Assembly (NCBI GenBank): GCA_035528115.1
Contig: DATKZF010000001.1
Coordinates: 160,312 to 224,311 of the forward strand
Source of the DNA: Candidatus Bipolaricaulota bacterium
GTDB taxonomy: Bacteria; Patescibacteriota; Patescibacteriia; UBA11705; DATKZF01
DNA: 64,000 nucleotides
Direction of reading: 5' to 3'
A program made the position numbers and the translations under genes. The notes beneath the pieces are model-generated. The model ran no database searches. It worked only from the letters and a program-made list of their open reading frames with translations, and was not told the origin of the DNA. Below, in pieces: positions 58,442 to 58,583 of the stretch; position 1 is the first letter of the stretch, and the number at the start of each line of letters is the position of its first letter.

Positions 58442-58583
58442 TGTGAATAAACAAAAAAATGCTTTATTATTAAGCATTTTTCAAGATCCTCGCCAACTGT
58501 GGATAAAAACAAATTTCAACTTTTTTATTTTTTATCTTTTATTTCTCATTTTTCAGGACACTTATCCCCTTTTTTGTGGATAA
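58442..58583. promoter_or_regulatory. Cluster of DnaA-box 9-mers flanking an AT-rich tract (oriC-like or DnaA-regulated region)
   Basis: TGTGAATAA at 58442-58450 (1 mismatch), TGTGGATAA at 58498-58506, TTATCCCC at 58561-58569 (variant), and TGTGGATAA at 58575-58583. The 58507-58560 stretch is more than 85% AT. Confidence 0.45.

What the first reader, a model, noticed from the sequence alone, without database searches (positions are those of the whole stretch)
58442..58583. DnaA-box enrichment, including an oriC-like cluster around an AT-rich tract far from any dnaA gene
The perfect 9-mer TGTGGATAA (reverse complement TTATCCACA) occurs at 5972-5980, 32183-32191, 58498-58506 and 58575-58583. 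The opposite orientation occurs at 62561-62569 inside the large plus-strand gene. That is five perfect copies against about 0.5 expected. At 58442-58583 two perfect and two one-mismatch boxes flank a 54-bp tract that is more than 85% AT, an arrangement typical of a DnaA-box/DUE origin module. Genes to the left of this point are almost uniformly on the minus strand, and the orientation flips to plus at 62128. That is what a nearby replication origin would produce. Alternatively the boxes are DnaA or other regulator sites at promoters: the box at 5972-5980 sits on the predicted TSS of the atp operon, and the one at 32183-32191 is upstream of lexA.
Basis: partly seen in the sequence, partly recalled or inferred. 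Interest (0 to 1): 0.55.

Follow-up and report, generated by a model that had tools for sequence, protein, structure and literature searches.

The report
Promoter DnaA boxes, not an origin
The cluster of DnaA-box sequences is not a replication origin: it belongs to the control region in front of the cell-division operon (mraZ) of a Patescibacteria bacterium, and the same 9-base motif is conserved at the mraZ and lexA promoters across this group, and in a few relatives at the ATP-synthase promoter, so the replication initiator DnaA most likely acts here as a gene regulator.

Summary
The sequence observation is real. There are five perfect TGTGGATAA/TTATCCACA copies against 0.44 expected, and two of them plus one relaxed copy (TTATTCACA) lie at 58442-58583.

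The origin reading fails:
- GC skew keeps its sign through the site to position 64000, including at third codon positions of the plus-strand gene.
- Genes on both sides of the site run the same way.
- The window has no dnaA, dnaN or other origin marker.
- The AT tract is 81.5% AT, partly coding, unremarkable for this window and not conserved.

The boxes lie just upstream of the mraZ-rsmH (dcw) promoter and its phased GTGG MraZ operator.

Comparative evidence:
- In 80 related Patescibacteria genomes, 57 of 73 perfect boxes fall within 700 bp upstream of mraZ, and skew does not flip there in 46 of 48 loci.
- In 70 related lexA loci, 47 of 53 boxes sit at the lexA promoter, which has no GTGG array.
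- The three closest atp relatives also keep a box.
- Upstream boxes vary only where classical DnaA boxes do, TT(A/T)TNCACA.

Best reading: high-affinity DnaA sites at promoters, with B. subtilis yllB/ftsL as the precedent. That DnaA is the protein that binds is inferred, not shown. This is a new member of a known kind and of moderate interest.

The parts
58575..58583 (-). Perfect DnaA-type box (TTATCCACA on the mraZ-sense strand), -186 from the end of the -10 hexamer. Forms an inverted pair with the degenerate box 58562-58570 (TTATCCACAaaaaaGGGGATAAG).
   Evidence: Conserved with its partner in L002, and homology between the two genomes starts exactly here. Lies in the last codons of ORF 58539-59387.
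58498..58506 (-). Perfect DnaA-type box (TTATCCACAG), -109 from the end of the -10 hexamer, between the Bro-N stop codon and the terminator-like hairpin.
   Evidence: Conserved at the same position in L002 (-110) while the flanks diverge.
58442..58450 (-). Relaxed DnaA-type box TTATTCACA (fits TTATNCACA), ending 15 nt upstream of the -35 hexamer. An adjacent inverted degenerate copy lies at 58430-58439.
   Evidence: L002 has TTTTGCACT at this position.
58507..58560 (.). The AT-rich tract taken for a DUE. It is 81.5% AT and contains the stop codon of ORF 58539-59387. It has diverged in L002.
58455..58481 (-). AT-rich hairpin followed by a T run (AAAAATGCTTaataatAAGCATTTTTTT), a probable terminator of the upstream Bro-N gene.
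   Evidence: Inverted repeat I6. Partly conserved in L002. Not picked up by the G+C-biased terminator scan.
58398..58426 (-). mraZ/dcw promoter, TTGATA-17-TATAAT (11 of 12 consensus positions), with GTGG immediately before both hexamers.
   Evidence: The same architecture is in 76 related loci after setting aside L008 and L023, whose assigned promoters lack it.
58359..58390 (-). MraZ-type operator: GTGGAAAT, GTGGGGAAAA, GTGGGGAAAA, direct repeats spaced 12 and 10 bp just downstream of the -10.
   Evidence: (D10). Matches the published MraZ-binding repeats, three GTGG[A/T]G with 4-nt spacers (bioRxiv 10.1101/2022.02.09.479790).
57700..58131 (-). mraZ, first gene of the dcw operon; rsmH follows at 56677-57675.
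   Evidence: Pfam MraZ 1.9e-37 and Methyltransf_5 5.6e-114.
32183..32191 (-). Perfect box 8 nt upstream of the lexA promoter (-35 TTGACC 32169-32174, -10 TATATT 32146-32151). A GTTC-N7-GTTC LexA-type box fills the spacer (32154-32168), and a second lies at 32119-32133.
   Evidence: The layout is conserved in relatives.
5972..5980 (-). Perfect box 11 nt downstream of the -10 of the atpI-atpB promoter (TTGACC 6015-6020, TATTAT 5992-5997), about +5 to +13 from the expected transcription start.
   Evidence: The box is kept at the same place, in flipped orientation, in L162 and L165/166, and as GGTGGATAA in L164.
55221..55229 (-). Relaxed box TTATGCACA after a terminator hairpin and 7 nt upstream of ATTACA-17-TATAAT, the promoter of the unannotated gene 54465-55154.
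62561..62569 (+). Perfect 9-mer about 430 nt inside the large plus-strand ORF. Probably the one chance copy.
   Evidence: Not conserved in L002, which has perfect boxes only upstream of mraZ. About 0.44 copies are expected by chance.

Best explanation
The boxes at 58442-58583 are not an origin. They are three co-oriented, high-affinity DnaA-type boxes (TTATCCACA, TTATCCACA, TTATTCACA) in the upstream regulatory region of the mraZ-rsmH (dcw) promoter of a Patescibacteria bacterium.

Reading along the minus strand, the layout is:
- end of the Bro-N gene with box 1 and an inverted degenerate partner
- an A-rich spacer
- box 2
- the terminator hairpin of the upstream gene
- box 3, 15 nt before the -35
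- the promoter TTGATA-17-TATAAT
- phased GTGG MraZ operator repeats
- a conserved stem-loop
- a genome-specific repeat insertion
- the mraZ ATG

Proposed mechanism (inferred): DnaA, whose level or ATP-bound form reports replication status, binds these boxes and modulates transcription of the division operon, acting together with MraZ autorepression at the adjacent operator. By analogy with B. subtilis yllB/ftsL the effect would be negative.

The same 9-mer sits 8 nt upstream of the -35 of lexA and just after the -10 of the atp operon. The five-fold excess of the motif in the window therefore reflects a small DnaA-type regulon at promoters.

Shown: positions, promoter context, conservation across the phylum, absence of origin features, and a variation pattern like that of DnaA boxes. 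Inferred: that DnaA is the protein that binds, and the direction of regulation.
For: Context:
- mraZ and rsmH lie immediately downstream.
- An 11/12 sigma-70 promoter is at 58398-58426.
- GTGG repeats follow it, as in published MraZ operators.

Not an origin:
- Cumulative GC skew falls steadily through the site.
- Every 1-kb bin from 52001 to 64000 is negative, and GC3 skew of the plus-strand gene 62128-63999 is -0.27 on the plus strand.
- L002 keeps the same sign for 10 kb upstream of mraZ.
- 46 of 48 loci (47 relatives plus the window) show no switch at the mraZ upstream region.
- No dnaA signature lies within +/-10 kb of mraZ in 80 loci (the single L074 match is an antisense-frame artefact).
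- No origin marker gene is in the window.

Conservation:
- 57 of 73 perfect boxes in 1.15 Mb of related loci lie within 700 bp upstream of mraZ. That is 1.065 per kb against 0.060 per kb in other non-ORF DNA.
- L002 keeps boxes 1 and 2 at the same distances while the flanks diverge, and homology starts exactly at box 1.

DnaA rather than MraZ:
- Upstream boxes tolerate changes at position 5 (TTATGCACA 51x, TTATACACA 16x) and position 3 (TTTTCCACA 14x). This is the classical TT(A/T)TNCACA degeneracy. Operator units instead vary at positions 7 and 9 and keep GTGG.
- Operator units are AAGTGG, whereas the window's boxes have T before GTGG and ATAA after.
- The same 9-mer is conserved at lexA promoters that have no GTGG array: 40 of 53 boxes within 500 nt, and 47 of 53 after adding promoters with an inserted small gene; 1.008 per kb against 0.029 per kb.
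- It is also kept at atp promoters of close relatives.

Precedent: ChIP and transcriptome data show that B. subtilis DnaA binds and negatively regulates the yllB(mraZ)/ftsL promoter (PMC2533591; PMC8203912; bioRxiv 10.1101/2022.02.09.479790). DnaA co-regulates SOS genes with LexA in E. coli (PMC8203912).
Against: - No DnaA protein or dnaA/oriC locus of this organism or a close relative could be retrieved. That its DnaA recognises TTATCCACA therefore rests on the general conservation of domain IV (PMC2533591), not on a test here.
- In this phylum the MraZ-type operator units (GTGGATAA, GTGGGGATAA) resemble DnaA boxes. Some upstream copies in relatives (for example TGTGTATAA at -43) are in helical phase with the operator, so part of the mraZ-linked enrichment could be MraZ sites.
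- Most relatives carry only one upstream box, and 26 of 76 have none.
- The P values ignore shared ancestry, and some metagenome loci are near-duplicates.
- The atp sample is small (7 loci).
- The direction of regulation is unknown.
Confidence: 0.65

Rival explanations
1. Chromosomal replication origin (oriC): DnaA boxes flank an AT-rich unwinding element, remote from dnaA.
For: Three DnaA-type boxes lie in 142 bp with an A+T-rich spacer. Strong minus-strand gene bias lies to the left, with a strand flip at 62128.
Against: No GC-skew sign change occurs at the site or anywhere up to position 64000, and GC3 skew of the plus-strand gene is still negative on the plus strand. Genes 58539-62119 immediately to the right are still on the minus strand. 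The flip at 62128 has only 8 bp of spacer. The tract is 81.5% AT, includes coding sequence, is one of 18 comparable tracts, and has diverged in L002. The homologous module shows no skew switch in 46 of 48 loci and is never next to dnaA. Relatives usually carry a single box. CPR origins do show a normal skew inflection (PMC4736985, PMC7111523).
Confidence: 0.03
2. Outlying MraZ sites: the 9-mers are distal, inverted MraZ boxes (GTGGATAA) that help the MraZ oligomer loop or wrap the dcw promoter.
For: The consensus MraZ-type unit in this phylum is GTGGATAA/GTGGGGATAA. Most perfect boxes in the mraZ loci set cluster at mraZ. Some upstream copies in relatives are in phase with the operator (-43/-44).
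Against: The window's boxes are antisense to the operator and spaced 56 and 77 bp apart, not in 10-11-bp phase. They carry T rather than A before GTGG. Upstream variants break the GTGG core (TTATGCACA) yet remain enriched. The identical 9-mer is conserved at lexA and atp promoters that have no GTGG arrays. Published MraZ repression in B. subtilis depends on the MraZ-binding repeats, and a triple repeat occurs only at the mra promoter.
Confidence: 0.12
3. A different, lineage-specific transcription factor recognises a site that happens to match the DnaA box.
For: The binding protein was not identified. The motif is promoter-proximal, often 7-15 nt upstream of the -35, as for a typical activator or repressor.
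Against: The site matches the universal DnaA consensus at 9 of 9 positions and varies at the same positions, 3 and 5. DnaA is universal and binds such sites with high affinity wherever they occur (PMC2533591). No second factor is needed to explain the data.
Confidence: 0.1
4. A DnaA-titrating cluster (like E. coli datA or the B. subtilis DnaA-box clusters) whose main role is to buffer free DnaA and so control initiation, not to regulate the neighbouring promoter.
For: Three co-oriented boxes lie in 142 bp, more than in most relatives. Such non-origin clusters are known in B. subtilis (PMC2533591).
Against: Most relatives carry only one box at mraZ, and single boxes sit at fixed positions relative to the -35 or -10 at lexA and atp. 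That fits promoter control better than bulk titration. The two roles are not mutually exclusive.
Confidence: 0.08

Closest known systems
B. subtilis DnaA-regulated yllB(mraZ)-ylxA-ftsL-pbpB promoter (Goranov et al. 2005, as cited in PMC2533591, PMC8203912 and bioRxiv 10.1101/2022.02.09.479790)
   Same: DnaA boxes lie in the promoter region of the first gene of the dcw cluster, next to MraZ-binding GTGG repeats. The role proposed there is to link replication status to division-gene transcription.
   Different: This is a different phylum (Patescibacteria). Here the association holds across about 80 species and extends to the lexA promoter, which is not among the DnaA targets named in the B. subtilis papers read here (PMC2533591, PMC8203912), and in a few close relatives to the atp promoter. 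No binding or expression data exist here.
E. coli DnaA as transcription factor (dnaA, nrdAB, mioC, uvrB/recN co-regulated with LexA; review PMC8203912)
   Same: Single or few consensus TTATNCACA boxes sit close to the -35 or -10, and there is an overlap with the SOS network.
   Different: In E. coli DnaA acts on SOS target genes. Here the box sits at the promoter of the SOS master regulator lexA itself, directly upstream of a -35 whose spacer holds a GTTC-N7-GTTC box.
Bacterial oriC (DnaA-box cluster plus DUE)
   Same: Same 9-mer, several copies, A+T-rich DNA between them.
   Different: No skew inflection, no divergence of gene orientation at the site, no dnaA/dnaN linkage, and a spacer that is not conserved and partly coding.
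MraZ-binding repeats (E. coli, Mycoplasma, B. subtilis)
   Same: The adjacent array 58359-58390 (GTGG units at 10-12-bp spacing after the -10) fits this family. Its units in relatives (GTGGATAA) look like DnaA boxes.
   Different: The finding's boxes are antisense, widely and irregularly spaced, lie upstream of the promoter, and recur at promoters without MraZ arrays.

Membership tests
Chromosomal replication origin (oriC) | GC-skew sign change (cumulative skew minimum) at the site | tested here: not met
   Skew is negative in every bin through to 64000. GC3 skew of the plus-strand gene is -0.27. There is no switch in 46 of 48 loci, counting the window.
Chromosomal replication origin (oriC) | Linkage to dnaA/dnaN or other origin-proximal genes | tested here: not met
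   No DnaA signature or origin marker is in the window or within +/-10 kb of mraZ in 80 relatives.
Chromosomal replication origin (oriC) | Cluster of several DnaA boxes | tested here: inconclusive
   Two perfect boxes and one relaxed box lie in 142 bp, which is fewer than typical origins. Relatives mostly carry one.
Chromosomal replication origin (oriC) | Conserved AT-rich DNA-unwinding element next to the boxes | tested here: not met
   The tract is 81.5% AT, overlaps an ORF end, is one of 18 similar tracts, and has diverged in L002.
Chromosomal replication origin (oriC) | DnaA-trio repeats adjacent to a box | not tested
   The trio consensus is too degenerate to score meaningfully in an A-rich tract. 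None is evident by eye.
DnaA box / DnaA-regulated promoter | Match to the 9-bp consensus TTATNCACA (best: TTATCCACA) | tested here: met
   Perfect at 58498, 58575, 32183 and 5972. TTATTCACA at 58442 and TTATGCACA at 55221.
DnaA box / DnaA-regulated promoter | Promoter-proximal position | tested here: met
   15, 8 and 7 nt upstream of the -35 at mraZ, lexA and 54465-55154, and 11 nt after the -10 at atp.
DnaA box / DnaA-regulated promoter | Variation profile of DnaA sites (positions 3 and 5 tolerant, the rest strict) | tested here: met
   Enriched variants upstream of mraZ promoters: p5G 51x, p5A 16x, p3T 14x. The one exception is p2A at 14x, all six copies in one orientation. The sample is modest and not corrected for phylogeny.
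DnaA box / DnaA-regulated promoter | Conservation of the site at orthologous promoters | tested here: met
   mraZ: 45 of 76 species have a perfect box. lexA: 38 of 70 loci within 500 nt, and more when promoters with an inserted small gene are counted. atp: 4 of 7 loci have a perfect box and one more has a one-mismatch box.
DnaA box / DnaA-regulated promoter | Binding by the organism's DnaA and an effect on transcription | not testable with these tools
   Needs EMSA, DAP-seq or reporter assays. The dnaA gene of this genome was not retrievable (one search returned only a 2-kb contig).
MraZ-binding repeats (operator of the dcw promoter) | Direct GTGG-containing repeats in 10-11-bp phase at the mraZ promoter | tested here: not met
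   Met by the neighbouring array 58359-58390. Not met by the finding's boxes: opposite strand, 56 and 77 bp apart, T rather than A before GTGG, and the same 9-mer recurs at lexA/atp promoters without arrays.

The most novel reading that the evidence does not exclude
In Patescibacteria, which have small genomes and few regulators, DnaA serves as a phylum-wide global transcription factor. It would link replication status directly to the promoters of the division operon (beside the MraZ operator), the SOS master regulator lexA and the ATP synthase operon. The near-identity of MraZ-type units (GTGGATAA) and DnaA boxes at the dcw promoter would then allow the two proteins to compete or cooperate there.
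Probability: 0.45. Interest if true: 0.6.

Novelty: new member of a known kind. Interest (0 to 1): 0.4.

Why it matters
It removes a false origin call. A DnaA-box cluster remote from dnaA could otherwise be mistaken for oriC in automated origin prediction on CPR genomes assembled from metagenomes.

It also points to a conserved and testable regulatory link in an uncultivated phylum that has very few transcription factors. The replication initiator's recognition sequence is fixed at the promoters of the cell-division cluster and of lexA in dozens of species. If DnaA binds there, this is a simple circuit coupling replication, division and the DNA-damage response, and it extends to a whole phylum a link so far documented mainly for B. 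subtilis yllB/ftsL.

It also shows that MraZ operator units can look like DnaA boxes, which matters for motif-based regulon and origin prediction.

Tried and rejected
- Retrieving the source contig to locate dnaA and compute whole-genome skew: the exact MraZ lookup returned only a 2,160-bp Logan contig, although a 266,694-bp contig exists. The source genome is not among the GTDB representatives; the best match is 86% (L002).
- Finding a Patescibacteria dnaA locus among the 160 fetched loci: none. One Walker-A-like hit in L074 is in a short antisense frame.
- Window-wide enrichment of relaxed motifs: not significant.
- Rfam: only tRNA-Glu in the window, so no known RNA explains the leader.
- GTTACGAATTACA repeats as part of the regulatory module: rejected. 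They belong to a genome-specific dispersed element absent from L002 and all other loci.
- The box as an alternative-sigma promoter element: rejected, because its distance and orientation relative to the -35 and -10 vary. The atp relatives carry it flipped.
- The Bro-N gene as a sign of a phage or plasmid origin: rejected. The box module is tied to mraZ across species, whereas Bro-N occurs only in the window and L002.
- Literature: no paper combining Patescibacteria with 'DnaA box', and nothing relevant for TTATCCACA plus mraZ.

Full report
**1. Observation**

That is five copies against 0.44 expected, and none of 100 shuffles reaches five.

Several details were overstated:
- The interval 58442-58583 holds two perfect boxes and one one-mismatch box (TGTGAATAA at 58442), not two.
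- The tract 58507-58560 is 81.5% AT, not >85%. The window contains 18 tracts that reach 85% AT over 54 nt.
- The tract includes the stop codon of ORF 58539-59387, and box 58575-58583 lies within the last codons of that ORF.
- One-mismatch and relaxed-consensus sets are not enriched window-wide.

**2. What surrounds the boxes**

The organism is a Patescibacteria (CPR) bacterium.

The gene downstream on the minus strand is mraZ (57700-58131), followed by rsmH, which is the start of the dcw cluster. The gene upstream is a Bro-N domain protein.

Read in the mraZ direction the region contains:
- box 1, TTATCCACA (58583-58575), paired with an inverted degenerate copy
- an A-rich spacer that includes the Bro-N stop codon
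- box 2, TTATCCACAG (58506-58498)
- a terminator-like hairpin (58481-58455)
- box 3, TTATTCACA (58450-58442)
- an 11/12 sigma-70 promoter, TTGATA-17-TATAAT (58426-58398)
- direct repeats GTGGAAAT, GTGGGGAAAA, GTGGGGAAAA (58390-58359)
- a G+C-rich stem-loop
- four copies of a 13-mer repeat
- the mraZ ATG

The GTGG repeats match the published MraZ-binding repeats: three GTGG[A/T]G units with 4-nt spacers in B. subtilis, and similar in E. coli and Mycoplasma (bioRxiv 10.1101/2022.02.09.479790).

**3. Origin test**

- Cumulative GC skew on the plus strand falls steadily through the locus.
- Every 1-kb bin from 52001 to 64000 is negative. Third-codon-position skew of the plus-strand gene 62128-63999 is -0.27 on the plus strand, so the skew there reflects replication and not transcription, and it does not flip.
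- Genes at 58539-62119, immediately right of the boxes, are still on the minus strand. The strand flip at 62128 has only an 8-bp spacer.
- The window has no dnaA signature. A near-complete Pfam annotation found no dnaN, gyrB, recF, rpmH, yidC or parB.
- In the closest relative (L002, MraZ 86% identical) the skew keeps its sign for the full 10 kb upstream of mraZ.
- Across 48 loci with enough flank, the window included, 46 have the same skew sign on both sides of the mraZ regulatory region. Only L045 shows an origin-like switch.
- None of 80 related loci has dnaA within 10 kb of mraZ. The one later hit, in L074, is an antisense-frame artefact.
- CPR genomes do show the normal skew inflection at their origins (PMC4736985, PMC7111523), so the test is valid for this group.

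The skew and gene orientation imply that the fork moves right to left through the window, so the origin lies beyond position 64000.

**4. Comparative evidence at mraZ**

In 80 species-representative Patescibacteria genomes (1.15 Mb fetched), 57 of 73 perfect boxes lie within 700 bp upstream of mraZ, and 45 of 76 usable loci have at least one. Density is 1.065 per kb, against 0.060 per kb in other non-ORF DNA of the same loci and 0.006 per kb in ORFs.

After anchoring each locus on its promoter, the architecture is strongly conserved. Sense-strand GTGG boxes occur at -33, -12, +9, +19, +29 and +51 from the end of the -10, spacings that keep them on one helical face.

Base-frequency tables show that the phased units are AAGTGG... 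(MraZ-type), whereas the +51 box is T-GTGG-ATAA.

The window's boxes belong to a second class that lies upstream of the promoter. An unbiased 8-mer scan of that region recovers only this motif, in both orientations, plus TATGCACA.

A position-by-position scan shows which variants of the upstream class are enriched: TTATGCACA (51x), TTATACACA (16x) and TTTTCCACA (14x). This is the classical DnaA degeneracy TT(A/T)TNCACA. One other variant, TAATCCACA, is also enriched (14x), with all six copies in one orientation. Operator units instead vary at positions 7 and 9 and keep GTGG.

Most relatives have one upstream box: 40 loci have one, 26 none, 7 two and 3 three. The window has three.

**5. Footprint against L002**

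- Similarity between the two genomes starts exactly at box 1. TTTATCCACAAAAA.GGGGATAAGT matches at 25 of 26 positions.
- Upstream of that point the window is Bro-N coding sequence and L002 is unrelated DNA.
- The A-rich spacer has diverged.
- Box 2, the promoter and the GTGG array are conserved.
- Bro-N occurs only in the window and L002, and in L002 it ends about 460 nt before box 1.

The boxes therefore belong to the mraZ control region and not to the upstream gene.

**6. Other promoters**

*lexA.* The box at 32183-32191 ends 8 nt before the -35 TTGACC. The promoter spacer is filled by a GTTC-N7-GTTC box.

In 70 related lexA loci from metagenomes, 40 of 53 perfect boxes lie within 500 nt upstream of lexA. 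Seven more sit at the same kind of promoter where a small gene is inserted before lexA, giving 47 of 53. Density is 1.008 per kb against 0.029 per kb in other non-ORF DNA.

These promoters have no GTGG array, which argues against MraZ as the binding protein.

*atp.* The box at 5972-5980 begins 11 nt after the -10 of the atpI promoter. Relatives L162 and L165/166 keep a perfect box at the same place in flipped orientation. L164, from the same MAG as L002, has GGTGGATAA. L169 has one further upstream. Two distant loci have none.

*Others.* A relaxed box (TTATGCACA, 55221) sits 7 nt before another promoter. The copy at 62561 lies inside a gene, is not conserved, and is probably the one chance copy.

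**7. Interpretation**

The motif excess reflects a small set of promoter-associated sites with DnaA-box specificity.

The closest documented case is B. subtilis, where DnaA binds and negatively regulates the yllB(mraZ)/ftsL promoter (Goranov 2005, as cited in PMC2533591, PMC8203912 and the MraZ preprint). E. coli DnaA co-regulates SOS genes with LexA.

I infer that DnaA binds here and tunes dcw, lexA and atp transcription according to replication status, alongside MraZ autorepression.

This step is not shown. No DnaA sequence or dnaA locus of this lineage could be obtained, and MraZ-type units in this phylum resemble DnaA boxes, so some mraZ-linked copies in relatives may be MraZ sites.

Rivals are an origin (about 0.03), distal MraZ boxes (about 0.12), another factor (about 0.10) and a datA-like titration cluster (about 0.08, which is compatible with DnaA binding).

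**8. Novelty and score**

DnaA boxes at promoters are a known kind. The phylum-wide link to the mraZ and lexA promoters in Patescibacteria was not found in the searchable literature. This is a new member of a known kind, with interest about 0.4.

**Caveats**

The enrichment P values ignore phylogenetic non-independence. Some metagenome loci are near-duplicates. The atp sample is small.

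Noticed in passing
window 45101-45195, 48170-48342, 56024-56118, 58144-58282, 59876-59969; single unit at 53178-53190; degenerate copies at 5409-5623 and about 31990-32135: A dispersed intergenic element of about 130-170 bp. It is built from the 13-mer GTTACGAATTACA: two forward and one to three reverse units at about 40-bp spacing, with shared spacer sequences (56024-56118 on the plus strand matches 58147-58281 on the minus strand). 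There are at least six copies in 64 kb. It is absent from all 160 related loci including L002, and it has no Rfam match. It looks like a genome-specific MITE-like repeat. One copy lengthens the mraZ leader to about 265 nt.
   Followed up: partly
window 58359-58430, and L002-L081 at the mraZ promoter: The Patescibacteria mraZ promoter/operator is strikingly conserved: aaGTGGTTGAC-N-GTGGnGTAtAAT, then AAGTGG units at +9, +19 and +29 and a T-GTGG-ATAA box at +51, all on one helical face. Whether MraZ or DnaA binds the +51 box is unresolved.
   Followed up: partly
window 58315-58360 (minus strand); L002 about 9785-9830: A G+C-rich stem-loop lies directly after the MraZ boxes in the mraZ leader. 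It is conserved in L002 with compensatory changes (CCGGCGG...CCGCCGG versus CTGGCGG...CCGCCAG) and is followed by the conserved GTTCACTT. It may be an attenuator or an RNA-stabilising 5' hairpin.
   Followed up: no
window 32154-32168 and 32119-32133; L084, L087, L092, L099, L105, L116 and others: lexA promoters of this group carry direct-repeat GTTC-N7-GTTC boxes in the -35/-10 spacer. From memory, this is the LexA-box type described for Alphaproteobacteria rather than the palindromic Gram-positive or E. coli types. The window has two copies.
   Followed up: partly
window 58539-59387; L002 8244-9089: A Bro-N domain gene (a phage-associated family) is inserted between the conserved TsaB-like gene and mraZ, only in the window and its closest relative. 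In the window its 3' end runs into DnaA-type box 1.
   Followed up: partly
window about 46000-49300: A stretch with raised G+C (0.47-0.51, against about 0.42 elsewhere), weak skew and a block of plus-strand ORFs without Pfam matches (47008-48138), plus a MORN-repeat protein (48504-49268). It is bordered by copies of the 13-mer element. Possibly acquired DNA.
   Followed up: no
L002 about 9950-9995: At the place where the window has the 13-mer element, the mraZ leader of the closest relative carries a tandem heptamer array (CCATGCT about five times). The leader seems to be a hotspot for repeat insertion.
   Followed up: no
L082, L083, L086, L089, L093, L095, L096 (about 550-640 nt upstream of lexA): In several relatives an extra small ORF lies between the SOS-box promoter (with its DnaA-type box) and lexA. 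Its identity was not checked. L162 has a 23S_rRNA_IVP-family gene inserted in the atp operon.
   Followed up: no
window 16834-18423 and 18448-19992; 23755-28284: Two tandem paralogues of cofactor-independent phosphoglycerate mutase sit in a glycolysis cluster (enolase, PGK). A four-gene NiFe-hydrogenase-like cluster is also present. Neither is related to the finding.
   Followed up: no
P0001 and P0121 (proteins identical to window MraZ and AtpB): NCBI labels the source MAG 'Candidatus Bipolaricaulota', whereas all close relatives of its MraZ, AtpB and LexA are Patescibacteria. Many related GTDB contigs are titled 'uncultured Gammaproteobacteria'. These are probably taxonomic mislabels in the records.
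   Followed up: no
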